Positions 9,733 to 50,061 of a stretch of 64,000 nucleotides of DNA are shown piece by piece. The notes under the pieces are model-generated. The model was not told where the DNA came from, did no database searches, and saw only the letters and a program-made list of their open reading frames with translations. Source of the stretch: an uncultured Gammaproteobacteria bacterium (GTDB lineage: Bacteria > Patescibacteriota > Microgenomatia > UBA12405); assembly GCA_964503465.1 (NCBI GenBank), contig CAZCYZ010000001.1, forward strand, positions 129,702 through 193,701, in the 5' to 3' direction. A program made the position numbers and the translations under genes. Positions within the stretch are counted from its first letter, which is position 1. Each line of letters opens with the position of its first letter.

Positions 9733-10290
9733 ATGAAAAATAACTCTGCTCTCAAGATTCTTTTTCTCTACAACTCAATTTTCGTTTTTGCTAACAATCT
9801 TATTGGCCCACTTTTTGCTCTTTACCTTCAAGGTTTTCATTCCAGTACTGTTACTATTAGCTTTACCTGGGCAGTTTTTGTTTTCTTTACGACCATTTTT
9901 ACTTATCTTTTTTCGAAGTTTGGCGATCGAATTAAAGAACAAGAATATACCCTTATGGCCGGCTTCCTTATTCGTTCCATCGTCTGGTTTCTCTATATTT
10001 TTACTGATTCACTCTCGATGGTGGTTGTGCTTCAAGTTGTTTTGGCCTTGGGGGAAGCCTTGGGTTCTCCAAGTTTTGACACCATCTTGTCTCAACATCT
10101 CGACGATGGTAGTCAAGTAGCCGAATATTCCACCTGGCGAGTCATGGCCAATTTATCAATGGCCCTGGCCACCATCATCGGTGGTTTTGTTGTTGCCAAG
10201 TTTGGTTTTCAGGTTTTATTTGTTGTTATGTCTCTTTTGGGTCTTTTTGCTTTTTTTGGCGTGCTCTCCAAACCCCGGGAGTTGCTGTAA
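9733..10290 (+). CDS. small six-TM membrane protein resembling half of an MFS transporter
   Basis: 185 aa with six hydrophobic helices and an MFS-like loop (FSKFGDRIKEQE). The family assignment is weak. Confidence 0.4.
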   Translation: MKNNSALKILFLYNSIFVFANNLIGPLFALYLQGFHSSTVTISFTWAVFVFFTTIFTYLFSKFGDRIKEQEYTLMAGFLIRSIVWFLYIFTDSLSMVVVLQVVLALGEALGSPSFDTILSQHLDDGSQVAEYSTWRVMANLSMALATIIGGFVVAKFGFQVLFVVMSLLGLFAFFGVLSKPRELL

Positions 10291-10297
10291 ATCTCCT

Positions 10298-14967: not shown

Positions 14968-15872
14968 TTACCAGACTTGACTCCACCACTCTTGCCAAAA
15001 TCACTACTCAGGCCGATATGGACGAATTTGTTAATTCCCTTGGTCTGACGACTAATACCGTTATCATTAAGCCCAATTGGGTTGATGGTTGTCTTGGTAC
15101 TCATACCGAAGCAAAAGTTCTTGACCTGTTTTTAGGATCATTAAAAAATAAAAAAATTTATCTTGTCGAAAGTTACACTTTTTGGCGCAATCAAAAATCA
15201 ACCGAAGAAGGGGAGGATTCTTTTTCTTCTTCCGAAGCTCAATTTGATACTGGCCAAAAACATTGGGATTTTTTCAAAGCCGGTGACGACTGGTTTCTAA
15301 GAAACAGTGGTATCGGTAAAGTTATTGGGAAATATGGAATCACCTACATTAATGTCACCAATGAACTTTGGGCTGGCCGGGAATCACCCATCCCTCTGGT
15401 TCCCCAAGTTCTTTACGATCTTCAGGGTTCTGACTTTATTAGTTTTGCCAAACTAAAGGGTGATGGTGATTATGGCGCCACCCTATCTATCAAAAATCTT
15501 TTTGGCCTTTACCCAGACCCGCATCGAATGAAAAAATATCATGGGGAAAATGATGAATTGATAAAAGATTCAATTCTAAAGATTAATCAAACCTATCGGC
15601 CTCTCTTTAAACACTTTTCCATTGTCGAAGGTGTCTATTTTGCCAGTTATGTCCACTGGTCCAAACACATTCATCAAGTATCCCAAGATTTGGGTATTAT
15701 TATTGGTGGTCAAGACGCCCTCCAAGTTGACGACACCGCTCTTAAAATGACCCAAACTCAACCATCCGGATCTCTCAAAACACTTCTGGTTGACTATCAA
15801 AAACTTTTTGGTGGTAACTTCCAGTCTCAAAGTATCCCTTCCGATTACCATGTTGAGTTGTTCAAACTATGA
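14964..15872 (+). CDS. DUF362-like protein inserted between gatA and gatB
   Basis: 302 aa. The N-terminal VIIKPNWVDG...THTEAKVLDLFLGSL...KIYLVES pattern resembles DUF362 and the 6056-7111 protein. ATGA overlaps occur at both ends. Confidence 0.45.
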   Translation: MITRLDSTTLAKITTQADMDEFVNSLGLTTNTVIIKPNWVDGCLGTHTEAKVLDLFLGSLKNKKIYLVESYTFWRNQKSTEEGEDSFSSSEAQFDTGQKHWDFFKAGDDWFLRNSGIGKVIGKYGITYINVTNELWAGRESPIPLVPQVLYDLQGSDFISFAKLKGDGDYGATLSIKNLFGLYPDPHRMKKYHGENDELIKDSILKINQTYRPLFKHFSIVEGVYFASYVHWSKHIHQVSQDLGIIIGGQDALQVDDTALKMTQTQPSGSLKTLLVDYQKLFGGNFQSQSIPSDYHVELFKL

Positions 15873-16159
15873 AAGTCGTTCAATGGTCAATGACTGTTTC
15901 AAACAATTTACATCAAGAATTTATTGAATATTCCCAAAACGTATTAAAACCCACCTGGTTCAAGTTTGGTGCCATCGATTATCGACTTTTTGAAGGAGAA
16001 AATAAGTTTATAGAACAGCTATTCTTCCCAGAAGATTTCAATCCCGAAGAGTTCTTTGCCAAAGTTAAATCCGATCCAAAGGCCAACGAAGTTTCCAAAA
16101 GTTATGAACAACACTTTCAGGCCACCAACATTCAAAAGGAGGTACTAAATCAACTATGA
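15869..16159 (+). CDS. hypothetical 96-aa protein inserted between gatA and gatB
   Basis: The ORF has 4-nt ATGA overlaps with both neighbours, suggesting translational coupling. I recognised no motif. Confidence 0.5.
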   Translation: MKVVQWSMTVSNNLHQEFIEYSQNVLKPTWFKFGAIDYRLFEGENKFIEQLFFPEDFNPEEFFAKVKSDPKANEVSKSYEQHFQATNIQKEVLNQL

Positions 16160-17553
16160 CCACCACTCCCATCATCGGACTTGAGGTTCATGTCGAACTA
16201 AAAACCAAATCAAAAATGTTTTGTGGTTGCAATGCCGAGCATTTTCAGCAGCAGCCCAACACCCACACCTGCCCGGTTTGTCTGGGTCTCCCCGGGGCAC
16301 TACCTGTCCCCAACATTATTGCCTGCCAGTGGTGTCTTAAGCTTGGACTGGCCCTCGGTTGCAGTATCAACCAGCATTCTTTTTTTGAGCGTAAAAATTA
16401 TTTTTATCCCGATCTGGCCAAGGGTTATCAAATCTCCCAACTTCAAAAACCGTTTTGCATTAACGGTCAACTAATTATCGATTCCCACTCCGTTCGCATC
16501 AATCGAGTTCACATGGAGGAGGATACTGGTAAATCAGTTCATGTCGGCGACCAGACCCTATTGGATTTTAACCGTTCCGGTGTTCCCTTGGTCGAAATTG
16601 TCTCCGAACCGGATATTAATTCTCCCGAAATCGCTAAAAAATATCTTCAAAAAATTCAGCAAATTGTCCGTTACTTGGGAATTTCTGATGCCGATATTGA
16701 AAAGGGGAGCATGCGTTGCGAACCGACTGTCAATGTCAATATTGATGGCCATTTTACCCCCTTGGTCGAAATTAAAAACGTCGCCTCTCTTACCGGGGTT
16801 CTAAATGCTATCCAATACGAAATTGATCGTCAAATCAAACAATTCGAGACCGATCATCTCGAAAAATCGCCGACCAACAAAACTACCCGTGGTTGGGATG
16901 CTGATAAGCAACAAACCTTTTTGCAACGGGAAAAAGAGGGAAGTGCTGACTATCGCTATTTTCCCGAACCCGATATTCCCCCAGTTGTTTGGTCCGATGC
17001 TGATATTAACACCATCAAATCGACCATTCCCGAACTTCCTGACCAAAAAATTGCCAAATATAAATCCTATGGCCTATCCGATTACGATGCTAATCTTTTG
17101 GCCGAAGACCAGATGTTTGCTGCCACTTTTGAAAAAGTTACCGGTGACCAACCTTCTCCTGAATTTGCAAAGTTTGTAGCTAATTTGTTTATCGGTCCGC
17201 TTAAGGCCATTAATCTTGATCAAGTAAATCCAGTTTATTTCAAAAATCTTTTTGACCACAAGCATGAGTTATCCTCGACGGCCATAAAAGAACTAATCAT
17301 TGAATCACTTTCGTCTAATGTTGACCCTTTAAAAATCGCCGCCGATAAAAATCTCTTTCAGGTCTCCGACACTGATACCATCGAGAAACTTGCCAGGCAA
17401 GTTATCGCTACTAACACCAAGGCAGTTGACGATTATCACAAAAACCCATTGGCCATTGGATTTCTTGTCGGTCAACTAATGAAACTTTCCCAGGGTTCCG
17501 CCAACCCTCAACTGGCCAAGGAAGTACTTGAGAAACTTCTCTCGACTAAGTAA
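16156..17553 (+). CDS. gatB: Asp/Glu-tRNA amidotransferase subunit B
   Basis: Motifs IGLEVHVELKTKSKMFCGC, CPVCLGLPGALP, FERKNYFYPDL and a C-terminal YqeY-like tail. Length is 465 aa. Confidence 0.95.
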   Translation: MTTTPIIGLEVHVELKTKSKMFCGCNAEHFQQQPNTHTCPVCLGLPGALPVPNIIACQWCLKLGLALGCSINQHSFFERKNYFYPDLAKGYQISQLQKPFCINGQLIIDSHSVRINRVHMEEDTGKSVHVGDQTLLDFNRSGVPLVEIVSEPDINSPEIAKKYLQKIQQIVRYLGISDADIEKGSMRCEPTVNVNIDGHFTPLVEIKNVASLTGVLNAIQYEIDRQIKQFETDHLEKSPTNKTTRGWDADKQQTFLQREKEGSADYRYFPEPDIPPVVWSDADINTIKSTIPELPDQKIAKYKSYGLSDYDANLLAEDQMFAATFEKVTGDQPSPEFAKFVANLFIGPLKAINLDQVNPVYFKNLFDHKHELSSTAIKELIIESLSSNVDPLKIAADKNLFQVSDTDTIEKLARQVIATNTKAVDDYHKNPLAIGFLVGQLMKLSQGSANPQLAKEVLEKLLSTK

Positions 17554-17555
17554 AT

Positions 17556-17711
17556 ATGATCAAAAAAATTGCTTTGATTGTCCTAATTGTCATGGGCGCC
17601 ATCTTTGCTATTCGTTTGCTTACCCCCGAAGACACCTGGGTTTGCTCGCAGGGCCAATGGATTAAACATGGCAACCCCTCCATCCCCATGCCCTCATCTT
17701 CTTGTCCCTAG
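17556..17711 (+). CDS. small (51 aa) membrane-anchored protein
   Basis: Own translation of an ORF below the track cutoff: MIKKIALIVLIVMGAIFAIRLLTPEDTWVCSQGQWIKHGNPSIPMPSSSCP. It has an N-terminal TM helix, and the ATG lies 2 nt after the gatB stop. Confidence 0.4.
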   Translation: MIKKIALIVLIVMGAIFAIRLLTPEDTWVCSQGQWIKHGNPSIPMPSSSCP

Positions 17712-18443
17712 TTATTTGCGTTTCACTCGTCTCCCAAGTTCCTTCAATACACCAGCAACCTGTCGATCAAATGTCCGTCTTTCGTTAACAATCTCATATC
17801 CTAAACTTTTTCGGTGAGCCGCTCCGGCTCGTCCAATTCCAGCTATTTCACAGTCAAAAGCCAAAATATCTCCTCGATTTCTCGTGGCCACTTGTCGTAC
17901 GGTTTTTTCACCTCTCTTAGGATTGGCTCTTTCTTCTTCTATTTGCTCCTGAAGTGCTAGTATCCTATCTGCACCCCTAGCTATTTCAGTAATTTCCGGC
18001 CAAAGATCTTTTGCTCCGTCTGGTATAACAATTGTACTTCCATCGGCACTACCACCATCTTGGTACAGATAAATCACACCATTAACGTTTCGTCCATCTC
18101 TTGTTCCCCTAACCATACACCCGATTGTGGTTTGCAACAAATGATTTCCTCTTAGGGGTGGTGGTTTGAATTCAATTACTGCGCGGGGAGTTATTGCGTC
18201 AGATCTTACTGATAATTTCAATCCATCAGGTCCGATCTCGATTTCGTCTTCAACTTCAAATCTTGTCTCAACCCCTCGTAATCCTCTTAGTGGTTTGGGC
18301 AAGTCACCAGACACAATTCTTTTTTTGATTTCCTGATGGGCCTTTATTCCAGCCTTACTCGCTTCTTGGTCTAAATTTTTTGGTGGTCCACCCCGTATTA
18401 CTTCGGCTATCTTACTTGGCGTAATTCTCCTCTCCGCCACCAA
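17712..18443 (-). CDS. orphan protein with PD-(D/E)XK nuclease-like motifs (Cas4/RecB-like core), non-ATG start
   Basis: 243-aa minus-strand ORF with no competing + strand ORF. The candidate motif order is H/E helix (GIKAHQEIKK), LSVRSDAI (Asp), AVIEFK (ExK) and LLQTTIGC (QxxxY-like). The start is TTG or GTG at 18443/18440. The protein is rich in Arg, Gly and Ala, unlike its neighbours. Confidence 0.5.
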   Translation of the reverse strand: MVAERRITPSKIAEVIRGGPPKNLDQEASKAGIKAHQEIKKRIVSGDLPKPLRGLRGVETRFEVEDEIEIGPDGLKLSVRSDAITPRAVIEFKPPPLRGNHLLQTTIGCMVRGTRDGRNVNGVIYLYQDGGSADGSTIVIPDGAKDLWPEITEIARGADRILALQEQIEEERANPKRGEKTVRQVATRNRGDILAFDCEIAGIGRAGAAHRKSLGYEIVNERRTFDRQVAGVLKELGRRVKRK

Positions 18444-18542
18444 ATAACATTCTAATCAAGTACCCCACTTTATCAAGCAGATAATTGTCATCATTGTTAT
18501 CCTATAGTTTCAAAAATACAAAAAAGAGTTATAATCACCCAA

Positions 18543-18809
18543 ATGGAGAAACAAAAAATCAAATATCACGGAGTTGATGCCTGGGGTAATCGTATCCCTA
18601 TTGTTACTGCTACCAAACCGGGTAAAGGCGAAACAATACCTGGAGTTGCCCTAAACCGTTCATCCGCCTCTGTGATCGTTGATGGTAGAGCTATTCAGAT
18701 GCCATTCAGTGAAACCGATGTCCGAATTACTCGAATGCCCAACTGTAAAGGTGCCCAAAGATTTCGAGTTATGCCGGTTAGGGAATCACGTAGTCCCGAT
18801 TTTGAATAA
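18543..18809 (+). CDS. hypothetical 88-aa protein, divergent from the PD-(D/E)XK-like gene
   Basis: ATG-initiated ORF with TATAAT at 18530-18535, 7 nt upstream of the start. No recognisable motif. Confidence 0.4.
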   Translation: MEKQKIKYHGVDAWGNRIPIVTATKPGKGETIPGVALNRSSASVIVDGRAIQMPFSETDVRITRMPNCKGAQRFRVMPVRESRSPDFE

Positions 18810-18823
18810 CGCTATACTAGATA

Positions 18824-21800
18824 GTGATCAATAGTTTTGATTCCGAATATCAAAAGCTTAATTCCGACCAAAAACTAGCCGTCGATACTACCGATGGTCC
18901 AGTCATGGTTGTCGCCGGTGCTGGCACTGGCAAAACTCAAACTATTGCTCTCCGCATTGCCAACATCCTCCAAAAGACTCAAATCGGCCCTAGCAACATT
19001 CTCTGTTTAACCTTTACTGACTCGGCCGCTATCAACATGCGCCAGCGTTTGTCATCCATTATTGGCCCCGATGCCTATTCAGTTCGCATCAGCACCTTTC
19101 ATTCGTTTTGTCAGTCGATTATCAAACACCATCCCGAGCATTTTCTTCAGTTTCACTCCGATTCCGAAGCCCTGGACAAAATCGAACAAATTCAAATCAT
19201 TCAATCCTTGATCGATAAACTTCCTCCCAATAGCCCTCTGACCAGCTCCGTCGAAATCTACTATGCCCAAAACCAAATAATTTCGGCCATCGAATCACTT
19301 AAAAAAGAAAGTATTTCTTCATCAGTTCTTGCTGATCTAATCAATCAATCCAGTCAATTCCTTCAATCGGCTGCCAGCTGTTACCAACAACTAAAAACCA
19401 TTCGGGCCGACAAAAAAAATCTTAATCAAATCATCGATATCGTGAATAAGTTAATTAAATTACCCAACATTAATTCCACTTACCAAACCAAAATTTCCTC
19501 ACTTGTCAAAGATCACTTAACTTCAGCCAAAGAAATCAAAACTTCAATTATTTGTTTTTATGAAAACTGCCAAAAAAACCTTCCCAAACAACAATCTCTC
19601 CTTTGGCTGTTTATCGAGTATCAACAACAACTTAGCTCTCGCCACCTCTTTGATTTTGATGACATGATCCTCTCAGTCATCGATCTTTTCAAAAATAAAC
19701 CAGAAATTTTGGCTGAATATCAGGAAAGATTCCAATATATCCTTGTTGATGAGTATCAAGACACAAATTCTTCTCAAAACCAAATTATTGATTTACTTGC
19801 CGGTTCTGATTTCCCTAATGTTTTTGTCGTTGGTGACGACGACCAATCAATTTTCCGCTTTCAGGGAGCTAGCACTGAAAATGTTTATCACTTCTATCTT
19901 CGTTATCACCCCCAACTGGTTGTCCTTCGCAATAATTACCGCAGTCATAGATTAATTTTAGCTTCAAGCCAAACACTTATTAACCGCAATCTCAATCGAA
20001 TTGCTACCAAAATTAGTAATATTGACAAGACTTTGATTGCCTCTCGGGATTACGACCCCGACCCAATCAATTTTTATGTTGCCCAGTCAAACATTGAAGA
20101 AAATTATTGTCTGGCTTCTTCCATTAAAAAACTTACTGATACCGGAGTAGATCCGAACCATATTGCCGTTTTAGTTCGAAATAATGCCGATATTGATGAT
20201 CTCCTGCCAGCATTATCAAGTTTCAATATCAAATACACCAAAGATTTTAGTATCAACATTCTTCTCCAACCGCCAATCATTCAACTTATTGACCTCCTTC
20301 GTTTGCTCTCCAATCCAACTGATTCCATTCTTTTTGGTAAAGTTCTAAATTTTCAGTTCCTAAATTTCCCCGCAATTGACCTTTATCGTCACTTCCACCA
20401 ACAACCAACATCTGACAAGTTTGTCAAACGTCTTGATAGGTTTACTGACCGTCTTGCTAAATTTCAAAAACAAAAGTTAAATCTTCCACCTGACAGACTT
20501 TTCAATCGCCTTATCCGTCGTTTTGGTTACCTAAAATGGGTTCTGCGTTGCCGTAATCTCGAACTCCTAAAACAACTCGACCGACTTTACCAGGAATTTA
20601 AAGTTAACTACACCGACAAAAGGCTGACTTTCGATCAAATAGTCTCCCGCCTTTCAACCCATTTTGATAGCAACCTATCCCTCAATTGTCCACCGCTTTT
20701 GTCCGAGTCGGTTAACTGCGTTCGTCTCATGACTATTCACAAAGCTAAAGGCTTGGAATTTGACCATGTTTTTCTCCCTAAGGCCCTAGCTTCTCGTTGG
20801 GAAGATGCTCGCGGTCGACAGTCAATTCCCCTTCCGCTTGGAATTATTGCCTCTGAAGTTATTGGCCCCAATTATGACCAAGAGCTTGAGGAAAACCGCC
20901 GTCTCTTTTATGTTGCCTTAACCCGGGCTAAAAACCAAATTTATCTCTCCTACACTCAAAATAATCCCGAAGGTCGGGAACTTCTCCCCACTCGTTTTAT
21001 TGCCGAAATTGACCCCAAAAATATTCAGACTTTTCCCACCGACCCCAATATCGAATCGTCCGCCCTAAAGTTACAGTTCTCCATGCCCAACACCAAATTG
21101 TTCTCGACTCAATTGTCCGACTATCTTCGGTGGTACTTTGCCAACAAATACCGCCTCAATATTACCCACCTTAACTCATATCAAAAATGCCCTCTTTGTT
21201 TTTTCTTCAAAACCATTTTAAAAATTCCTCAAGCCAAGACTATACCACTTTCTTATGGCACTTCTGTTCATGGGGCCCTCGCCTATCTTTTTTCAAGCTA
21301 TAAAAGAACCGATTCCTTAATTCCTCTCAATCAATTTCTTAACATTTTTCAAAATAATTTAGTCAGAGAGAATTTACCACTCAAAAATTTTGACGAATTA
21401 CTGACTCGTGGCCGTCAACAGCTAACCGAATATTACCAGCATTATCAATCAAACTTCAGTGGTCGTTGTCTAGTCGAACATGATTTTCGTCCTTATCTGG
21501 CACGGATCGATGATATCCCTATCACTGGTAAGGTTGACAAGATTGAGATTATTTCTGGAAGAAAAGTCAATGTAGTTGATTTTAAAACTGGTAAACCAGA
21601 CAACAAATATCATGAAATTTCTCGGGAAGGGGATTATTTCCGCCAACTTGTCTTTTACAAGATTCTAGCCGATCACAGTCCTGGCTTTAATTATCAGGTT
21701 GTTTCTGGTTCAATTGACTTTATTCAGACCAACTCTCGCAACCAATTTGTCCGTCGTGATTACGACATTACTCCTTCCGACATTTCATCCCTCACTAGCA

Positions 21801-21928
21801 TTATCAAAGATACCTATCAAAAAGTTATCTCTTTAAATTTTTCCCAAAACCCATCCTGCCCCGACCACGACCACCTTCATCATCTTGCTTCCAAATACTT
21901 TTTCACTTGTTCCTCGATCCAGGGGTAA
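18824..21928 (+). CDS. UvrD-like SF1 helicase fused to a C-terminal PD-(D/E)XK (RecB/AddA-type) nuclease domain
   Basis: 1034 aa with a GTG start. Helicase motifs: VVAGAGTGKTQT, ILVDEYQDTN, VGDDDQSIFRFQGA, NYRS and TIHKAKGLEFDHVFL. Nuclease-domain motifs: YQKCPLCFFF, GKVDKIE, VVDFKTGK and RQLVFYKIL. Confidence 0.85.
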   Translation: MINSFDSEYQKLNSDQKLAVDTTDGPVMVVAGAGTGKTQTIALRIANILQKTQIGPSNILCLTFTDSAAINMRQRLSSIIGPDAYSVRISTFHSFCQSIIKHHPEHFLQFHSDSEALDKIEQIQIIQSLIDKLPPNSPLTSSVEIYYAQNQIISAIESLKKESISSSVLADLINQSSQFLQSAASCYQQLKTIRADKKNLNQIIDIVNKLIKLPNINSTYQTKISSLVKDHLTSAKEIKTSIICFYENCQKNLPKQQSLLWLFIEYQQQLSSRHLFDFDDMILSVIDLFKNKPEILAEYQERFQYILVDEYQDTNSSQNQIIDLLAGSDFPNVFVVGDDDQSIFRFQGASTENVYHFYLRYHPQLVVLRNNYRSHRLILASSQTLINRNLNRIATKISNIDKTLIASRDYDPDPINFYVAQSNIEENYCLASSIKKLTDTGVDPNHIAVLVRNNADIDDLLPALSSFNIKYTKDFSINILLQPPIIQLIDLLRLLSNPTDSILFGKVLNFQFLNFPAIDLYRHFHQQPTSDKFVKRLDRFTDRLAKFQKQKLNLPPDRLFNRLIRRFGYLKWVLRCRNLELLKQLDRLYQEFKVNYTDKRLTFDQIVSRLSTHFDSNLSLNCPPLLSESVNCVRLMTIHKAKGLEFDHVFLPKALASRWEDARGRQSIPLPLGIIASEVIGPNYDQELEENRRLFYVALTRAKNQIYLSYTQNNPEGRELLPTRFIAEIDPKNIQTFPTDPNIESSALKLQFSMPNTKLFSTQLSDYLRWYFANKYRLNITHLNSYQKCPLCFFFKTILKIPQAKTIPLSYGTSVHGALAYLFSSYKRTDSLIPLNQFLNIFQNNLVRENLPLKNFDELLTRGRQQLTEYYQHYQSNFSGRCLVEHDFRPYLARIDDIPITGKVDKIEIISGRKVNVVDFKTGKPDNKYHEISREGDYFRQLVFYKILADHSPGFNYQVVSGSIDFIQTNSRNQFVRRDYDITPSDISSLTSIIKDTYQKVISLNFSQNPSCPDHDHLHHLASKYFFTCSSIQG

Positions 21929-22845
21929 GTTAGCTCTACCCCCCGTTTTAATGGAAATTGAGCTTTCCAGCCAGTAGCATAGATTTTGTCGTTACTAAAA
22001 TTTCGTGATTGAACACCAACCGGCCCCCTAATGTGTTTGATGGTAATATTTTTATTAGCCACCTTGGCAACTATTGCCACTAGTTCGTCAACCGAGACAT
22101 ACTCTGGATTACCAATATTCGTTGGTACCGAAACTTCCGAGTCTACTAACTTTCTTATCCCGTCTACCATATCGTCCACATAAGTGTATGACCTTACCGC
22201 CGTTCCGTCCCCCCAAACTTCTATCTCCCCCGAGTCACCTTTGATTTCGGCCACCTTTCGGCATATTGCCGCCGGGGCTTTTTCTCGTCCCCCTTGCCAA
22301 GTTCCTTCAGGTCCATAACAGTTCTGAAATCTGGCTATCCGTACTTTCATCGAGTATTTTCGCCCATACGCTAGCAACATTCTTTCACTATAAAGCTTTT
22401 CCCATCCATATTCATTATCCGGCTGGGCTGGATAAGCCTGTTCTTCGACCATTTCTGGTTCACCGATTTTCATATCACGATACACACAGACCGAAGATGA
22501 AAAAAAATACTTTCTCACCCCTAGTTTGGCGGCGGAGTCAATCATATTAATATTAATTAAGGCGCTATTTCTCATAATTTCGCATTCGGCTGAGTGGATA
22601 AAGCCCATCCCCCCCATATCTGCCGCTAGCTGATAGACCTCATCAAATCCACCGTCTATGGTTAAAGCTTTAATGCAATTTTCTCTTTCCCTCAAATCTA
22701 ATACTAAGAACTCATCTGCGACTGATTTGGTGAATTCATGATTTTTTATATCCACCCCTCTAACCCAATAACCATCTTTTTTTAGCCTCTTAACCAAATG
22801 TCCGCCAATAAAACCTCCTGCTCCCCCAACCAAAACTTTTTTCAT
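21880..22845 (-). CDS. NAD-dependent sugar-nucleotide epimerase/dehydratase (extended SDR, GDP-mannose 3,5-epimerase-like)
   Basis: Rossmann motif GGAGGFIGGHL and catalytic YGWEK (YxxxK). Length is 321 aa. Its 3' end overlaps the convergent helicase gene by 49 nt. Confidence 0.85.
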   Translation of the reverse strand: MKKVLVGGAGGFIGGHLVKRLKKDGYWVRGVDIKNHEFTKSVADEFLVLDLRERENCIKALTIDGGFDEVYQLAADMGGMGFIHSAECEIMRNSALININMIDSAAKLGVRKYFFSSSVCVYRDMKIGEPEMVEEQAYPAQPDNEYGWEKLYSERMLLAYGRKYSMKVRIARFQNCYGPEGTWQGGREKAPAAICRKVAEIKGDSGEIEVWGDGTAVRSYTYVDDMVDGIRKLVDSEVSVPTNIGNPEYVSVDELVAIVAKVANKNITIKHIRGPVGVQSRNFSNDKIYATGWKAQFPLKRGVELTYPWIEEQVKKYLEAR

Positions 22846-22962
22846 ATCTCTAGTCTACATAAATCACTTTAAAAAATCACCCAACTGATTCCAACCTGAA
22901 ATATGTCTGATAATATTTTAGTCCCTTGACAAACCCTACTATAAGTCTTTGACTTAAATAAA

Positions 22963-25900
22963 GTGCGTCCATTCAAGTTTTTTGGGATATTGTTTTGCGC
23001 AGTAGCATTGGCCTTCTTGACCATAAGTCCATCTTTTGCTGTTAATCAAGCCACCATCACTTCCCTGACTGTTTCTGACTCAGCTGTTGGTGCTACCAAT
23101 GTTACCTACACTCTTCAGTTTCAATTAGATACCGAAATTACCGCCGACACAGCCAAGTCAATGAATTTTGATCTCAACAGAATGAGTACCAAAAGTACCT
23201 GGGAAGGTGGAGATCAAACATCCAACATGGCCACGGCCACTGGCACCTTTAGCAGTTTTCAATATGACAGTACTGGTAGTGGTAATTGGGTCGATATTGA
23301 CTTTGGCGGCGCTAGTTATTTTCACAAAGAAATTTCAACCGACAATTCACTGTTAATTTGGGGTCTAGGTTATGTCGACAATAACGACATCCATTCGATT
23401 CAAACAACCATTCCTGTCAACAAAACGGTCAAATTAGTTGTTACTGGTGTTACTAACCCCAATAAAGCCGGTGCTTATACTTTTAGTATTGAAAGTGGTT
23501 TAGGACCAGCTAGTGACACCTACTGGTTGTTGCCCCAGGATTCTCTTGCTCGGGACCGAGCTCTGTATGTTGATATCGGCACCTATTGTTTACGGGCCAA
23601 GATCAAAGATCCTACCGGGGCTACTGCCATTGCCAAGGCCGAACTCTATCTTCACAATTCTAACTGGACCATCACTTCTTGGGGCGGTAGAACTTTTGCC
23701 GATGGTGCTGTCTCTTACTACCCAGATGATTTCTGGTACACTGGCGGTCCGGCCCAGGAAACCTGTCCTACTGGCATAATTACCATCGAAGCCAACCCTC
23801 CAGGTGGCGTAAATACTTATGCCAAGGCTGTCGATAAGACACCCACATTACCGGGGGATAAAGACACTTATTACAATACCCCGATTACTATGTCGGCCAT
23901 TCAGCTTCAGGGTAGACTTCATAATCCTGCCGTCTCCTCTGGTCAGTATCACTATATCACCAACTCTAATGTCAGTTTTACTCCTTCCGACTTTAATCCA
24001 ACGGGGTTTAAAAACACTCAATCCGACAACAACGGAATTTTCAGAATTGGCGGTTTAGCCGTTGGAACTACCTACACCGTTGGATTTATGATGCCTTGGG
24101 ATAGTGGTTACGGAGGTATTAATGTCCCCGATTCATTTCAAGTTGTTGTTGATGCTGACGGGAAAGTAAAAACGGTCGCCGTCGGCGGCACTTGCCCTGA
24201 TTTTGCCGTTAATTGTGATTTGGGTGACATTGATTACACTGTCGCTACTAAGACCATCACCGGTACCCTCAAAGACAGTGATGGTAACCCAATAACCAGT
24301 GGTCGTATTCGAGCTTTTAAAGAAATGGGCATGGGCCAAGCCCAGGACGAGGTCGACTCCAACGGTAATTATTCTCTAACTGTCGGTGGCGGTACCTGGG
24401 GATTGCAGCCTGAACCCAATTGGAATCCTAGTAGTCCTCCCGATTGGTCTTATTGTGGTATGTCTAAATTTTTTGTCTTTGCCGGTGATACTACTGTCGA
24501 GACCAAAACTAGTGCCAATAGTAGTGGTCAAACAGACTTTACCGTCAAGAGAACTACTGTCACCGTCACCGGTGATGTCGTTTACCCCAACGGCAATCCA
24601 CTAACCGGCCAGGGTGGAGTTGAAGTTCGATCCAAGGAAGGTTGCGGTACCTTTGCTCAATTGGATATGAATGGTCATTTTTCCACCAAAGTTGCTCCCG
24701 GAACCTACAATGTTATGGTTCAAGTTTGGGATCAAACATACAGTGCTCCGTCTGTTCAAACCATCACCGTCTCTACCAGTAATTACAATGTTGGGACTCT
24801 CACTCTAACCGAAAAGAAAGACACCATTACTGGCCGAGTTTGGAATGATATCGATGGCGACAATACTTACGATTCCGGCGAGGGAATCAGCGGTCAACAG
24901 ATAAATGCCTCTAAAATGTCCAAAAAATTTGATGAATTTGGCGGTCCAGGCAGTGGTCCGATGATGGGTCCTGGCGGTGGTGATTTTAGCGGTACCACTA
25001 GTGGTAACAATGGAGTTTATTCTCTAAAAGTTACTCCGGGTACCTGGATGATTAATCTTATGTCCGACCCAGGGATGATGGGGGGATATTCCGAAAGCAG
25101 CACTAATTATATTTACAACGGCAGTCCGCTTGAAGTCAATGTTACCTCCTCGGCTAATGGTGGCACCTTCCCTGACAATAATTTTAAACTTACTGTTGCC
25201 GACGCCACCATTAAAGGCAAGCTGGTTGATAGTAACGGTACTGCTATTGCTGGTGTTTGGGGTTTTGCTTTTGCTGATACCGGTTCAGGTGGACCAATGA
25301 TGGGTGCTGGCATGGGGGCTCCGATTCAAAATGGTATCTTCACCATCAAGGTTCCTGCCGGCACTTACAACGTCGGCGTCGAATTTCCTCCCGAATCGTC
25401 TGGGTATACTCCCGCCTCGTCAACTGAAACCACTATCACCGCCGGTGAAACCAAATCAATTGATATTACTGTTAAACCCAATAACCGGAGGATAAAAGTT
25501 AACTTCAAAGACACCAACGGTAACCCTATTACCACCCTTTCTCAAGCTAATATTTTTGCCGACAACAGCAGTGGCGGTCATATGTTTAAAATGCTTTATG
25601 GTTCGGATCTGGTTAGCGGATCAACTACTCTTTCTGTTAGCGAGGGCACTTGGAATATTGGCTACTTCATTGATCCGACTACTAACAACTATATGTCCGA
25701 ACCCATGTCCAAGGACAATGGTATTACTGTTACTAGTGTTCATACTGCCGATAATCCGGCTGTTCTTAATATTACTCTTCGTAGTGCCGATTCAACCATT
25801 TCAGGTACTGTCACCGGTCCAACTGGCACTGCCTTGGCTGGTGTTTGGATTTCCACCGACAACCGTAAAGCCTCAGGATTCTCTAGTGGTGGCCCAATGT

Positions 25901-27366
25901 TCATGACTGGCAGTGCCACCGACTCAAACGGTAGTTATTCTATTTCTTTACCAGCCGGTACCTATAAAGTTCAGGCGTTCTTGCCTCCGTCAATGGGCTA
26001 TATTAATCCAGATGGAGTCGAGGTGACAATCAGTCCAAGTAGCCCTGGCGTCGCCAATTTACAGTTTAGTCAATCCGACGCTACTATTACCGGTTCTGTC
26101 TACCTAAACGAGGTTAAAAAAGGTGCCTTTATTTCCGCCTATTCGGACAAGGGTGGTTATAGTGAAACCAATGCTAATAGTGGTGATTATTCTCTCAATG
26201 TCACCAAGGATGACACTTGGTATGTTCGTGCTATGTACGAAACCGGTTCTGATTTTTACCAAAGCACCATTAACAAAGTCATTATGGCTGGTGCATCCAC
26301 CAAAAGCCAAAATCTTACGCTCACCAAAGCCTCATTCACCTTACCTGATTCAGTTTCAACTACCTTTGACTATCAGAATGCTAAAAAAATTAGTCTTAGT
26401 AACGGTTTCAATCTATCTATCCCTGCCGGCGCCATTCCCCCCACTAGTAACGCTACGGGAGATAACATTACTATCACCATTTCGCCTACCTCACAACTTT
26501 CTACCCAAAATAAGGCCATTCCCATTGGTATTGGTTATGAAATTACTGCCACCGATGACTCTGGTAGTCTTATCACCTCCAATTTTAACGACAATGTCAC
26601 CATTACCATTCCTTACACCGCCACCTATCTTGAGGAGGCGCTTGGTTCCAGTGACGAAACCTTGCTTGATAATGGTTATTGGGATACCACCACTTCTACT
26701 TGGAAAGGTATAACCGGTACCACCATTGACACTACTAATAAGACTATTTCCTTCACGGTTAACCACTTTACCACCTTCTCTATCCTCTCCAACAAAGACC
26801 CCAATACTGTTGGTGGCTCATCCGGTAGCAATTCTACTCAAGCTAGTACCAACAGTAACAGCACTCCAAGTTGCAACAGTCAGGTGCCAGGCAGTGCTCC
26901 AACTTTATTCAGAATCGATCGTACCAAAACCACTGCTAAACTTTACTTTGCTCCCTCCAGCGATCCGGTCACTTATTACTATATTGCTTATGGCCACAAG
27001 GTAGGGGATTATCGCTATGGGGCATCTTTTGACCAAGGACATTCAGGGGGTGTACTAACCTACACTATCAAAAGCCTCAAGCCCAATGTTAAATACTATT
27101 TTTCAATCCGTGCCGGTAACGGTTGCATGCCTGGACCATGGTCAAATTGGTTCCCCAACAAAAATGCCAAAGTAACTCCAGTTACTGCCTCGACATCTCT
27201 CAGGGCAAAAAACAATGCTGCGACTACCAACCTACCTCAACCCTCAATTCCCCCGGTGGTCGAAGCTCTCCCTACTTCTACTCCTCCTCCAAAACCACTT
27301 CCTACCCCCACTCCTAAGAAAAACATTTTTCAACAAGGTCTCGAATGGTTGAGGAAAATCATCTAG
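22963..27366 (+). CDS. giant secreted surface protein with tandem carboxypeptidase-regulatory-like/Ig-like beta-sandwich modules and a C-terminal FN3-like domain
   Basis: 1467 aa with a GTG start and a signal peptide, MRPFKFFGILFCAVALAFLTISPSFA. The module signature recurs: GTLKDSDGNPITSG, GDVVYPNGNPLTG, GKLVDSNGTAIAGV and GTVTGPTGTALAGV, each followed by GxYxV. An SdrD-B-like GRVWNDIDGDNTYDSGE is present. The C-terminus has an FN3-like YYFSIRAGNGCMPGPWS and a Pro-rich tail. Confidence 0.8.
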   Translation: MRPFKFFGILFCAVALAFLTISPSFAVNQATITSLTVSDSAVGATNVTYTLQFQLDTEITADTAKSMNFDLNRMSTKSTWEGGDQTSNMATATGTFSSFQYDSTGSGNWVDIDFGGASYFHKEISTDNSLLIWGLGYVDNNDIHSIQTTIPVNKTVKLVVTGVTNPNKAGAYTFSIESGLGPASDTYWLLPQDSLARDRALYVDIGTYCLRAKIKDPTGATAIAKAELYLHNSNWTITSWGGRTFADGAVSYYPDDFWYTGGPAQETCPTGIITIEANPPGGVNTYAKAVDKTPTLPGDKDTYYNTPITMSAIQLQGRLHNPAVSSGQYHYITNSNVSFTPSDFNPTGFKNTQSDNNGIFRIGGLAVGTTYTVGFMMPWDSGYGGINVPDSFQVVVDADGKVKTVAVGGTCPDFAVNCDLGDIDYTVATKTITGTLKDSDGNPITSGRIRAFKEMGMGQAQDEVDSNGNYSLTVGGGTWGLQPEPNWNPSSPPDWSYCGMSKFFVFAGDTTVETKTSANSSGQTDFTVKRTTVTVTGDVVYPNGNPLTGQGGVEVRSKEGCGTFAQLDMNGHFSTKVAPGTYNVMVQVWDQTYSAPSVQTITVSTSNYNVGTLTLTEKKDTITGRVWNDIDGDNTYDSGEGISGQQINASKMSKKFDEFGGPGSGPMMGPGGGDFSGTTSGNNGVYSLKVTPGTWMINLMSDPGMMGGYSESSTNYIYNGSPLEVNVTSSANGGTFPDNNFKLTVADATIKGKLVDSNGTAIAGVWGFAFADTGSGGPMMGAGMGAPIQNGIFTIKVPAGTYNVGVEFPPESSGYTPASSTETTITAGETKSIDITVKPNNRRIKVNFKDTNGNPITTLSQANIFADNSSGGHMFKMLYGSDLVSGSTTLSVSEGTWNIGYFIDPTTNNYMSEPMSKDNGITVTSVHTADNPAVLNITLRSADSTISGTVTGPTGTALAGVWISTDNRKASGFSSGGPMFMTGSATDSNGSYSISLPAGTYKVQAFLPPSMGYINPDGVEVTISPSSPGVANLQFSQSDATITGSVYLNEVKKGAFISAYSDKGGYSETNANSGDYSLNVTKDDTWYVRAMYETGSDFYQSTINKVIMAGASTKSQNLTLTKASFTLPDSVSTTFDYQNAKKISLSNGFNLSIPAGAIPPTSNATGDNITITISPTSQLSTQNKAIPIGIGYEITATDDSGSLITSNFNDNVTITIPYTATYLEEALGSSDETLLDNGYWDTTTSTWKGITGTTIDTTNKTISFTVNHFTTFSILSNKDPNTVGGSSGSNSTQASTNSNSTPSCNSQVPGSAPTLFRIDRTKTTAKLYFAPSSDPVTYYYIAYGHKVGDYRYGASFDQGHSGGVLTYTIKSLKPNVKYYFSIRAGNGCMPGPWSNWFPNKNAKVTPVTASTSLRAKNNAATTNLPQPSIPPVVEALPTSTPPPKPLPTPTPKKNIFQQGLEWLRKII

Positions 27367-36649: not shown

Positions 36650-36675
36650 CAGCCTGGTATCTATATAATCAATCT

Positions 36676-50031: not shown

Positions 50032-50061
50032 TCTCTCTCGTTTCTGTTATATAATTCCCCT

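What the first reader, a model, noticed from the sequence alone, without database searches (positions are those of the whole stretch)
17556..21928. Orphan PD-(D/E)XK-like gene on the minus strand, divergent 88-aa ORF, and an adjacent helicase-nuclease fusion
Between gatB and a 1034-aa UvrD-helicase/RecB-nuclease fusion sits a 243-aa minus-strand gene.
- It starts with TTG or GTG.
- Its composition is rich in Arg, Gly and Ala, unlike the Ile/Leu/Phe/Asn-rich neighbours.
- It carries a plausible restriction-endonuclease-fold motif series: SVRSDAI, 9 residues, then IEFK, then QTTIGC.
- Its stop abuts the stop of a 51-aa membrane ORF with no spacer (TAG TTA at 17709-17714).

A divergent 88-aa ORF follows across a 99-nt gap, with TATAAT 7 nt before its ATG.

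Two readings are possible. One is a mini AddB-like partner or accessory for the AddA-like helicase-nuclease. The other is a small acquired nuclease + small protein + helicase module, such as a defence or toxin-antitoxin-like system. I cannot match it to a named defence system.
Basis: partly seen in the sequence, partly recalled or inferred. Interest (0 to 1): 0.5.

Follow-up and report, generated by a model that had tools for sequence, protein, structure and literature searches.

The report
Orphan RecB/Cas4-fold nuclease beside helicase
The 243-aa minus-strand gene is a real, fast-evolving DNA nuclease of the well-known RecB/Cas4 fold, from a small family with no existing database profile; it occupies a variable slot next to a housekeeping helicase-nuclease in a few CPR bacteria and is not part of a conserved three-gene system.

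Summary

The helicase-nuclease is a core gene of Microgenomates-type CPR bacteria, in a conserved gatCAB–helicase–RmuC–hrcA/grpE/dnaK block. The gatB–helicase interval is a variable slot. The nuclease occupies it in five lineages, but in only 1 of 12 loci found by searching with the helicase, with no remnants elsewhere. It evolves about three times faster than its neighbours (dN/dS ≈0.22 vs 0.05–0.09).

The 88-aa ORF is a genome-specific orphan with a good coding signature and a leaderless-type promoter. The 51-aa ORF is a conserved small membrane protein.

Best reading: an autonomous, dispensable DNA-end-processing nuclease. The "mini-AddB partner" and "defence/TA trio" readings lack support. 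Modest interest.

The parts
16156..17553 (+). gatB (465 aa), the left anchor of the conserved synteny block.
   Evidence: ORF. Orthologs called GatB_N/GatB_Yqey in related loci. 67-82% identity across lineages.
17556..17711 (+). 51-aa small membrane-anchored protein. It is conserved and belongs to the core block, not to the nuclease.
   Evidence: 53% identity over 45 aa to the 52-aa ORF at the same post-gatB position in L015. In-frame codon score 0.345, typical of real genes. Its ATG lies 2 nt after the gatB stop.
17712..18440 (-). Stand-alone RecB/Cas4-fold PD-(D/E)XK nuclease. It is 242 aa from the conserved GTG, or 243 aa from the TTG at 18443. The nuclease core spans about residues 1-140. 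Residues 141-243 form a helical C-terminal extension with a basic tail.
18132..18338 (-). Catalytic motif block: H36 (18336-18338), D82 (18198-18200), E91 (18171-18173), K93 (18165-18167), Q104 (18132-18134).
   Evidence: Conservation in the 36-sequence alignment: H 35/36, D 36/36, E/D 35/36, K 35/36, Q 33/36. Codons were checked by eye against the sequence. The residues match motifs I-IV of RecB-family nucleases (established knowledge). The same series occurs in the helicase's own nuclease domain: H816, D905, D919-x-K921, Q941.
18449..18476 (-). Promoter-like site for the nuclease gene, TTGATA-16-TAGAAT. The -10 element ends 8 nt before the GTG start, implying a leaderless or near-leaderless transcript.
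   Evidence: 10 of 12 matches. One search shows this geometry is the norm in the window (14 of 44 genes vs 2.7% of random positions).
18530..18535 (+). Perfect TATAAT -10 element, 7 nt upstream of the 88-aa ORF start.
   Evidence: Sequence. Geometry matches the window-wide leaderless pattern. No good -35 element, and the site is not listed by the two-hexamer scan.
18543..18809 (+). 88-aa genome-specific orphan ORF. It is probably a real leaderless gene. Its function is unknown, and it is not a conserved partner of the nuclease or the helicase.
   Evidence: Only a self hit in 5.8 billion proteins. No Pfam/NCBIfam/PADLOC/PHROG/PDB/phage hits. Codon score 0.283, above all 102 spurious ORFs (max 0.259) and within the range of real genes. 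No significant similarity to small ORFs at the same position in other lineages. No Rfam match.
18824..21928 (+). 1034-aa UvrD/PcrA-type SF1 helicase fused to a C-terminal Cas4-like (PDDEXK_1) nuclease. It is a core gene of Microgenomates-type CPR bacteria. A -10-like TATACT at 18814-18819 lies 5 nt before its GTG.
   Evidence: Pfam. NCBIfam best match is PcrA at 325 bits, with AddA and RecB far below their cut-offs. PDB best match is PcrA, then UvrD, then AdnB. 7914 homologs with E<=1e-30. Conserved H816, D905, D919, K921, Q941, Y945 and C789/C792/C1012. Promoter geometry.

Best explanation
The minus-strand gene (17712-18440) encodes a genuine, probably active, metal-dependent DNA nuclease of the RecB/Cas4/lambda-exonuclease branch of the PD-(D/E)XK superfamily. 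It belongs to a small, previously unmodelled family restricted, as far as sampled, to Microgenomates-type CPR bacteria. It lacks the Fe-S cluster of Cas4/AddB and carries a helical, basic C-terminal extension.

The most likely mechanism is inferred from the fold, the conserved H-D-E-K-Q site and the behaviour of its structural neighbours. It would bind a free DNA end and degrade or clip single-stranded DNA or the 5' strand, using Mg/Mn held by H36, D82 and E91, with K93 as the catalytic lysine. That makes it an accessory end-processing enzyme for recombination/repair or for disposal of linear DNA.

It is transcribed on its own from a leaderless-type promoter. It sits in a variable slot between gatB and a housekeeping UvrD-Cas4-like helicase-nuclease. 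It appears to have been inherited mostly vertically within one subclade, with repeated clean losses, and it evolves about three times faster than its neighbours.

It is therefore best read as an autonomous, dispensable 'solo' nuclease. It is not an obligate subunit of the helicase and not part of a nuclease/88-aa/helicase system. The 88-aa ORF is a genome-specific orphan that is probably expressed. The 51-aa ORF is a conserved small membrane protein of the core block.
For: Real gene:
- Homologs at 49-52% identity in L001 and L003, and 33-36% in L006-L009.
- Family of 36 clusters.
- dN/dS 0.21-0.23.

Fold:
- AF2 pLDDT 92.3.
- Foldseek against PDB and viral libraries.

Active site: H36, D82, E91, K93, Q104 conserved 92-100%.

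No Fe-S cluster: only one semi-conserved Cys, C109 in 28/36.

Own promoter.

The helicase is core: thousands of orthologs, and the gatB-helicase-RmuC-hrcA-grpE-dnaK block is conserved.

Variable slot:
- Unrelated cargo or nothing in L004, L005 and L014-L020, L070, L088.
- No nuclease remnants.
- The nuclease is in 1 of 12 helicase-seeded loci with gatB directly upstream, and 0 of 73 distant ones.

Vertical inheritance with fast evolution: nuclease identity ranks with helicase identity, and dN is 0.41 against 0.13-0.15 for the neighbours.

No phage, plasmid or IMG/VR relatives. No PADLOC hit.

Precedent: solo Cas4-family nucleases are over-represented in CPR genomes (PMC5704561, read).
Against: - No biochemical evidence exists. 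Polarity and substrate are inferred only from structural neighbours that share 10-17% identity.
- In all four nuclease-seeded lineages with enough context (window, L001, L006/7, L008/9), and in L003, the gene lies in the gatB-helicase interval. In L001 and L006 it is directly divergent from the helicase gene. A functional link is therefore not excluded.
- Unusual Arg-rich composition, atypical codon usage and elevated dN/dS would also fit a defence or conflict-related role.
- dS is near saturation (1.7-2.4), so dN/dS values are rough.
- Contexts of the distant family members come from short contigs, so helicase linkage there is unresolved.
- Loss versus gain history was judged from pairwise identities, not from trees.
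Confidence: 0.6

Rival explanations
1. Minimal AddB-like partner. The stand-alone nuclease docks onto the single-chain UvrD-Cas4-like helicase-nuclease and cuts the 5'-terminated strand, while the helicase's own nuclease cuts the 3' strand. Together they form a two-nuclease end-resection machine analogous to AddAB/AdnAB.
For: - The gene lies next to, or in the same interval as, the helicase gene in five lineages, with nuclease identity down to 33%. It is directly divergent from the helicase in L001 (29 bp) and L006.
- The fold matches the AdnAB, RecB and AddB-type nuclease domains.
- No AddB/AdnA-like second subunit exists in the window.
- An unfused UvrD + Cas4-like operon is reported in Clostridiales (PMC5704561).
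Against: - Only 1 of 12 helicase-seeded loci with the gatB-helicase arrangement has the gene, and 0 of 73 more distant helicase loci do. Absences are clean.
- The family has 36 clusters against thousands of helicase orthologs.
- The genes are transcribed divergently from separate promoters and are not an operon.
- In L003 and L008/9, other genes separate the two.
- The distant member on L013 has no helicase within 1.4-3.9 kb.
- The protein lacks AddB's helicase-like scaffold and Fe-S cluster.
- It is not a duplicate of the helicase's nuclease domain (hhalign finds no hit).
Confidence: 0.15
2. Defence or conflict nuclease. A solo-Cas4-like effector degrades invading linear DNA, sits in a hot-spot for accessory genes, and evolves fast because of an arms race.
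For: - dN/dS is 3-4 times that of its neighbours.
- Composition and codon usage are outliers.
- Distribution is patchy, in a slot with variable cargo that includes a Y1-transposase-like gene in L004 and an NTase/kinase fusion in L003.
- The best viral structural neighbours are archaeal-virus Cas4-like nucleases.
- Solo-Cas4 genes in small-genome organisms have been proposed to act in defence or repair (PMC5704561).
Against: - No PADLOC hit.
- No conserved partner such as a methylase, sensor or ATPase.
- No relatives in phage, plasmid or IMG/VR collections.
- Slot cargo elsewhere is mostly housekeeping-like: hydrolases, HIT-like and HAD-like proteins.
- Divergence ranks with the helicase, so inheritance looks vertical and not mobile.
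- dN/dS of 0.22 is still clear purifying selection.
Confidence: 0.2
3. Toxin-antitoxin-like or nuclease-immunity pair, formed by the 243-aa nuclease and the divergent 88-aa protein.
For: The two are adjacent and divergent, both are Arg-rich with low GC3, and the 88-aa ORF shows a coding signature and a perfect -10 element.
Against: - The 88-aa ORF has no homolog anywhere.
- It is absent next to every other family member.
- Small neighbours in other lineages are unrelated to it.
- The nuclease persists without any conserved small partner.
Confidence: 0.03
4. Spurious or decaying ORF. The 243-aa frame is not a functional gene.
For: Its codon-usage score (-0.14) is below all 40 reference genes in the window, and it has no database profile.
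Against: - Homologs are conserved across 36 clusters with an intact catalytic site.
- The AF2 model is confident.
- dN/dS is 0.22.
- No long ORF exists on the other strand.
Confidence: 0.01

Closest known systems
Cas4 (COG1468 / pfam01930, e.g. SSO0001, PDB 4ic1), including 'solo-Cas4' of CPR genomes
   Different: No match to the Cas4 HMMs. No four-Cys Fe-S cluster. No CRISPR array in the window and no Cas-family Pfam hit among the flanking ORFs that were scanned. It also has a helical C-terminal extension.
MGME1 (human mitochondrial genome maintenance exonuclease 1, PDB 5zyu)
   Different: 11% identity, eukaryotic and mitochondrial, with no evolutionary continuity shown. The substrate preference of the CPR protein is untested.
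RecE / lambda exonuclease / YqaJ-type alkaline exonucleases (PDB 3h4r, 3slp, 3syy)
   Different: No adjacent single-strand annealing protein. No phage context. Oligomeric toroid formation is unknown.
AddB / AdnA / RecB nuclease domains of AddAB, AdnAB and RecBCD
   Different: The protein is 243 aa with no helicase-like scaffold and no Fe-S cluster. It is divergently transcribed, and it is present beside only a small minority of orthologous helicases.
UvrD-Cas4-like fusion proteins of pfam12705 and the unfused UvrD + Cas4-like operon of Clostridiales (Hudaiberdiev et al. 2017, PMC5704561)
   Same: The 1034-aa neighbour has exactly this UvrD + PDDEXK_1 architecture. A separate Cas4-like gene beside a UvrD-type gene has precedent.
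   Different: Here the helicase already has its own intact nuclease domain. It sits in a housekeeping block, whereas the paper describes R-M and Dcm contexts. The extra nuclease is not in an operon with it.

Membership tests
PD-(D/E)XK superfamily, RecB/Cas4/lambda-exo branch | alpha-beta-beta-beta-alpha-beta core fold superposable on known members | tested here: met
PD-(D/E)XK superfamily, RecB/Cas4/lambda-exo branch | Catalytic D ... (D/E)xK on adjacent strands, plus a metal-binding His/Glu in helix 1 | tested here: met
   D82 36/36, E/D91 35/36, K93 35/36, H36 35/36. They lie at the ends of strands 76-84 and 88-93 and in helix 26-45 of the model.
PD-(D/E)XK superfamily, RecB/Cas4/lambda-exo branch | RecB-family motif IV, QxxxY, in the helix after the ExK strand | tested here: inconclusive
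   Q104 is conserved (33/36) in helix 99-116, but the +4 position is not Tyr. A conserved Tyr (Y127, 34/36) sits on the next strand.
PD-(D/E)XK superfamily, RecB/Cas4/lambda-exo branch | Metal-dependent nuclease activity | not testable with these tools
   Requires purified protein and D82A/K93A controls.
Cas4 sensu stricto (pfam01930 / TIGR00372 / COG1468) | Match to the family HMM | tested here: not met
   No Pfam or NCBIfam hit for the window protein at E<=1. No Cas4, DUF83 or PDDEXK Pfam family is matched by any of the 36 members at E<=0.1.
Cas4 sensu stricto (pfam01930 / TIGR00372 / COG1468) | Four conserved Cys that bind an Fe-S cluster | tested here: not met
   Only C109 is semi-conserved (28/36). 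Members have 0-5 Cys, with no CxxC...C pattern.
Cas4 sensu stricto (pfam01930 / TIGR00372 / COG1468) | Association with cas1/cas2 or a CRISPR array (for CAS-Cas4) | tested here: not met
   No repeat array in the 64-kb window. The neighbours are gatB, small ORFs and the helicase.
AddB / AdnA-type second subunit of a helicase-nuclease | Large subunit with an (inactive or active) SF1 helicase-like scaffold N-terminal to the nuclease | tested here: not met
   The protein is 243 aa, and the whole chain is a nuclease core plus helices.
AddB / AdnA-type second subunit of a helicase-nuclease | Co-operonic and co-occurring with the helicase-nuclease partner | tested here: not met
   Divergent orientation with separate promoter-like sites. 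Present in 1 of 12 helicase-seeded loci with the gatB-helicase arrangement and 0 of 73 others.
AddB / AdnA-type second subunit of a helicase-nuclease | Physical complex with the helicase subunit | not testable with these tools
   No multimer prediction or biochemistry was available.
Known anti-phage defence systems (PADLOC-DB v2) | Match of the nuclease or the 88-aa protein to a defence-system model, with the system's partner genes adjacent | tested here: not met
   No hits for the 243-aa, 88-aa or 51-aa proteins. The helicase matches GajB models only through its generic UvrD core, and no GajA is present.
Type II toxin-antitoxin-like pair | Conserved two-gene cassette across homologs | tested here: not met
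   The 88-aa ORF is unique to this genome. Small neighbours of other family members are unrelated.
AddA / RecB equivalog (for the 1034-aa helicase-nuclease) | Score above the NCBIfam equivalog cut-off | tested here: not met
   addA_Gpos scores 129 bits against a cut-off of 708. recB scores 138 against 696. The best match is pcrA at 325 against 911. The architecture is UvrD/PcrA core + PDDEXK_1.

The most novel reading that the evidence does not exclude
In a subclade of Microgenomates the stand-alone nuclease is a detachable, scaffold-free equivalent of the AddB/AdnA nuclease. It binds the single-chain UvrD-Cas4-like helicase-nuclease through its helical C-terminal extension and supplies 5'-strand cleavage. 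The result would be the most reduced two-nuclease DNA-end resection machine known. Its rapid evolution would then reflect conflict with phage-encoded inhibitors of end-processing enzymes.
Probability: 0.1. Interest if true: 0.6.

Novelty: new member of a known kind. Interest (0 to 1): 0.3.

Why it matters
The result adds a small family, invisible to sequence profiles, to the RecB/Cas4 branch of PD-(D/E)XK nucleases. It shows that the family becomes recognisable only after an exhaustive profile search supplies enough sequences for structure prediction (pLDDT rose from 37 to 92).

It gives one more concrete example of the 'solo' Cas4-like nucleases that are enriched in CPR bacteria and whose role is still unknown. 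It also defines a variable slot inside an otherwise rigid gatCAB-helicase-RmuC-dnaK block that could be used to study gene turnover in these reduced genomes.

It does not reveal a new system. The suggested trio is not conserved, and the helicase is housekeeping. If the partner model were true, it would be of real interest for how minimal genomes resect DNA ends.

Tried and rejected
1. Profile libraries (Pfam, NCBIfam, PADLOC, PHROGs) for the 243-, 88- and 51-aa proteins gave nothing. Pfam on all 36 family members gave only noise.
2. PDB sequence searches with a single sequence and with two profiles gave noise.
3. AF2 with a two-sequence alignment gave pLDDT 37.5 and was unusable. It was superseded by the 35-sequence run.
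4. hhalign of the family against the helicase's own nuclease domain gave no hit. The stand-alone gene is therefore not a recent duplicate of that domain.
5. Scans of GTDB genomes, JGI metagenomes and IMG/VR with the nuclease or the helicase gave no confirmed loci, or the alignment was too divergent to seed a search. Because of this the organism could not be named. Its placement rests on named helicase homologs from Shapirobacteria and Woesebacteria.
6. tblastn against phages and plasmids gave no match.
7. A non-coding RNA explanation for the interval was rejected: no Rfam hit at gathering threshold or at E<=1, and no tRNA.
8. No mobile-element boundaries were found: no meaningful direct or inverted repeats around the genes.
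9. No degraded nuclease remnants were found in loci that lack the gene.
10. The idea that the 88-aa ORF belongs to a weakly conserved family of small ORFs upstream of the helicase was rejected (z <= 1.9 against shuffles). L008_78 and L019_72 are, however, related to each other.
11. The AFDB50 fold library was unavailable.
12. The 'high-GC foreign island' idea was rejected: GC is ordinary and GC3 is below the host mean.

Full report
**1. Observation**

The last carries UvrD-helicase, UvrD_C and PDDEXK_1 domains.

The sequence details also hold:
- The two stop codons abut (TAG 17709-17711, TTA 17712-17714).
- The gap to the 88-aa ORF is 99 nt.
- A perfect TATAAT (18530-18535) lies 7 nt before its ATG.

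The composition claim holds quantitatively. Arg is 11.5% against 3.9 +/- 1.6% for 40 window genes, and Arg+Gly+Ala is 30.3% against 15.4 +/- 3.5%. However, total GC is ordinary (0.439 vs 0.416) and GC3 is low (0.291 vs 0.383 +/- 0.034). The gene is odd in amino-acid and codon usage; its codon score of -0.14 is below every reference gene. It is not GC-rich foreign DNA.

The conserved start is the GTG at 18440 (242 aa). The public gene call and both close homologs begin there.

**2. Is the 243-aa ORF a gene, and what fold does it have?**

Pfam, NCBIfam, PADLOC and PHROGs give nothing. The word-indexed search of 5.8 billion proteins finds only itself and one 49%-identical protein. A third homolog at 52% identity turned up in a related contig (L003).

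An exhaustive HMMER search with a two-sequence profile against 1.84 billion cluster representatives found 36 clusters at E<=1e-3, of which 14 are at E<=1e-10. All are 190-390 aa long, most of them 200-255 aa. None of the 36 aligned sequences has a meaningful Pfam hit, and PDB sequence searches fail.

The alignment shows one invariant residue, D82. Near-invariant residues are G32, H36, K93, P94, Q104 and Y127, and E/D91 is present in 35 of 36.

AlphaFold2 on two sequences was useless (pLDDT 37.5). On 35 sequences it gave pLDDT 92.3 and pTM 0.86.
- Foldseek agrees on the PDB (RecE 2.4e-5, Cas4 1.6e-4, RecBCD, AdnAB).
- Foldseek also agrees on viral models (archaeal-virus Cas4-like nucleases).

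The match covers about 150 residues at the N-terminus. Residues 141-243 are long helices ending in a basic tail.

In the model, H36 sits in helix 26-45, D82 at the end of strand 76-84, E91-x-K93 on strand 88-93, and Q104 in helix 99-116. This is the order of motifs I-IV of RecB-family nucleases (established knowledge). The helicase's own nuclease domain shows the parallel series H816, D905, D919-x-K921, Q941...Y945.

Only one Cys (C109, 28/36) is semi-conserved, so the Fe-S cluster of Cas4/AddB/Dna2 is absent.

dN/dS between the window and L003 or L001 is 0.21-0.23, which is purifying selection. It is 3-4 times the 0.05-0.09 of helicase, gatB, DUF362 and RmuC for the same genome pair, and dN is about three-fold higher (0.41 vs 0.13-0.15). 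dS is near saturation, so these values are rough.

Conclusion: this is a real, probably active RecB/Cas4-fold nuclease from a family that no profile library covers.

**3. The helicase-nuclease and the neighbourhood**

The 1034-aa protein is closest to PcrA/UvrD in its motor and falls far below the AddA and RecB equivalog cut-offs. It has at least 7914 homologs at E<=1e-30. The named ones come from Candidatus Shapirobacteria and Woesebacteria, which are Microgenomates-type CPR bacteria.

In every related contig examined it sits in the same block: (UvrD paralog)-FemAB-gatC-gatA-...-gatB-[slot]-helicase-nuclease-[second variable stretch]-RmuC-hrcA-grpE-dnaK-dnaJ. The window has the same order. 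It is therefore a housekeeping gene and not a defence module. No AddB/AdnA-like second large subunit occurs in the window.

**4. The slot between gatB and the helicase**

Contents differ from lineage to lineage:

| Locus | Slot contents |
|---|---|
| Window | 51-aa (+), nuclease (-), 88-aa (+) |
| L001 | nuclease directly divergent from the helicase, 29 bp apart, no 88-aa ORF |
| L003 | nuclease (-), a 629-aa NTase/APH-like fusion (-), a 151-aa ORF (+) |
| L006/7 | two small ORFs, then the nuclease divergent from the helicase |
| L008/9 | a 102-aa ORF, the nuclease, a 64-aa membrane protein, a 72/78-aa ORF |
| L004 | a Y1-transposase-like gene only |
| L005 | 118-aa, 313-aa (weak GT2), 63-aa, 68-aa |
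| L014, L015 | one small ORF |
| Seven JGI loci | 24-1561 bp with an alpha/beta-hydrolase-like ORF, HAD-like or HIT-like ORFs (by eye), or nothing |

A six-frame HMM scan finds no remnant of the nuclease in any locus that lacks it.

Counting only loci found through the helicase, so unbiased with respect to the nuclease, 1 of 12 loci with the gatB-helicase arrangement has the gene. None of 73 more distant helicase-nuclease loci does. Distant family members (P0135, P0138, P0147) lie on short contigs in other contexts, one beside folD and one near a Y1_Tnp-like gene.

Within the slot-resident subfamily, nuclease identity ranks with helicase identity:

| Compared with the window | Nuclease identity | Helicase identity |
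|---|---|---|
| L003 | 54% | 81% |
| L008 | 46% | 70% |
| L006 | 37% | 53% |

This pattern fits long residence with fast divergence and repeated loss. It does not fit recent acquisition. No relatives occur in phage, plasmid or IMG/VR collections.

**5. The small ORFs**

The 51-aa ORF is 53% identical over 45 aa to a 52-aa ORF at the same post-gatB position in L015 (TPEDTWVCS.G.W..HG.PS.P). It has a normal codon score. It is a conserved small membrane-anchored protein of the core block.

The 88-aa ORF has no homolog at all and no profile, PDB or phage match. It shows no significant similarity to small ORFs occupying the same position elsewhere. Its in-frame codon score (0.283) exceeds all 102 spurious ORFs of similar size (max 0.259) and lies within the range of real genes.

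Its TATAAT 7 nt before the ATG fits a window-wide pattern. Fourteen of 44 gene starts have a >=5/6 -10-like hexamer ending 4-10 nt upstream, against 2.7% of random positions. Only 2 of 44 have a Shine-Dalgarno-like motif. The nuclease gene (TTGATA-16-TAGAAT, 8 nt before the GTG) and the helicase (TATACT, 5 nt before the GTG) show the same geometry. So the 88-aa ORF is probably a real, leaderless, genome-specific orphan gene. The three genes look like separate transcription units (inference).

**6. Mechanism**

Shown: the fold, the conserved catalytic residues, purifying selection, an independent promoter-like site, the slot variability and the low co-occurrence with the helicase.

Inferred: a Mg/Mn-dependent nuclease acting on free DNA ends, either as a 5'-3' exonuclease or as an ssDNA/flap endonuclease. 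This follows its closest structural relatives MGME1, Cas4, RecE and Dna2. It would serve as a dispensable accessory enzyme in recombination/repair or in the disposal of linear DNA.

I rate the autonomous solo-nuclease reading at about 0.6. The rivals are:
- Defence effector (0.2). It is supported by fast evolution and odd composition. It is weakened by the lack of any PADLOC match, any partner or any mobile-element link.
- Mini-AddB partner of the helicase (0.15). It is supported only by proximity. It is weakened by 1/12 co-occurrence, divergent transcription and intervening genes.
- Toxin-antitoxin pair with the 88-aa ORF (0.03).
- Spurious ORF (0.01).

**7. Comparison with known systems**

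It works like a Cas4/RecB-type nuclease. It fails membership of Cas4 proper, because it has no HMM match, no Fe-S cysteines and no CRISPR array in the window. It also fails membership of AddB/AdnA, because it has no helicase-like scaffold, no operon and no co-occurrence.

Hudaiberdiev et al. 2017 (PMC5704561, read) already reported three relevant things: solo Cas4-family genes are over-represented in CPR genomes, UvrD-Cas4-like fusions form a large pfam12705 branch, and an unfused UvrD + Cas4-like pair exists in Clostridiales. The present locus is a further, sequence-divergent example in that landscape.

**8. Verdict**

This is a new family-level member of a known kind of enzyme, of modest interest (0.3). 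The most novel reading still open is a scaffold-free AddB-like partner for a single-chain helicase-nuclease, at roughly 0.1 probability.

Noticed in passing
whole window; examples at 18530-18535, 18449-18454, 18814-18819, 36662-36667, 50048-50053: Fourteen of 44 gene starts have a >=5/6 TATAAT-like hexamer ending 4-10 nt before the start codon, against 2.7% of random positions. Only 2 of 44 (gatA, gatB) have a Shine-Dalgarno-like motif. Leaderless transcripts seem to be the norm for first genes of transcription units in this CPR genome.
   Followed up: partly
window 17556-17711 (+); L015 6766-6924: The 51-aa ORF right after gatB is a conserved small membrane-anchored protein with two Cys (motif TPEDTWVCS.G.W..HG.PS.P). 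It is 53% identical over 45 aa to a 52-aa ORF at the same position in a lineage whose helicase is only 56% identical. It has no family annotation.
   Followed up: partly
window 17554-18823 and the same interval in L003-L006, L008, L014-L020, L070, L088: The gatB-helicase interval is a variable slot inside a rigid block, ranging from 24 bp to about 3.5 kb. Its unrelated cargo includes a 629-aa NTase+APH-like kinase fusion and a 151-aa ORF with a Nudix-box-like motif (by eye; no Pfam hit) in L003, a Y1_Tnp-like gene in L004, a weak GT2-like gene in L005, and an alpha/beta-hydrolase-like ORF and HAD-like and HIT-like ORFs (by eye) in L017-L019.
   Followed up: partly
window 21880-27366; L005 9033-15009; L015 10063-10915; L006 1263-2709: A second variable stretch lies between the helicase and RmuC. 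The window has a minus-strand epimerase and a 1467-aa CarboxypepD_reg/fn3 surface protein. L005 has 370-, 123- and 1446-aa proteins. L015 has a SocA_Panacea-like protein. L006 has an RHH protein and a dUTPase.
   Followed up: no
window 18824-21928, residues 789-792 and 1012-1019 of the helicase-nuclease: The nuclease domain of the helicase keeps C789-x2-C792 at its N-terminal side and C1012...D1014, D1016, H1017, H1019 at its C-terminus, invariant or nearly so in 56 orthologs. This could be a metal site or cluster with a ligand pattern different from the canonical Cas4/AddB arrangement as I recall it (one Cys N-terminal, three C-terminal).
   Followed up: partly
window 21880-21928: The 3' end of the helicase gene (+) and the 3' end of the epimerase gene (-) overlap convergently by 49 bp.
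   Followed up: no
L008 4035-4271 (-) and L019 6318-6536 (+): A small protein encoded just upstream of the helicase is conserved between two lineages (ELxxxxYLxPxxGGxxGNxxxVD; Smith-Waterman z 6.1 against shuffles). It is unrelated to the window's 88-aa ORF. A 63/64-aa membrane protein (L005, L008, L009; 63% identity) is also shared upstream of the helicase.
   Followed up: partly
window 15869-16159 (+); L005 1425-1724: A 96-aa ORF between DUF362 and gatB has no Pfam family but is 66% identical to a 99-aa ORF in L005, so it is a conserved unannotated small protein.
   Followed up: no
L004 628-1197 and L013 1549-2226: Y1_Tnp (IS200-like) related genes occur twice in this story: once filling the slot in a lineage that lacks the nuclease, and once 1.7 kb from a distant nuclease-family member. 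This may be coincidence.
   Followed up: no
L003 3281-5170, L005 4227-4583, L008 5421-5729, window 18543-18809: Several unrelated slot genes in different lineages share the Arg-rich composition of the nuclease, which is unlike the host proteome (sequences; only the window ORFs were quantified). The cause is unknown; nucleic-acid binding or a common foreign origin are possibilities.
   Followed up: no
window 10181-12190 (+): A second UvrD-type helicase (669 aa) without a nuclease domain lies 6.6 kb upstream of the helicase-nuclease. It occupies the same position in L014 and L015.
   Followed up: no
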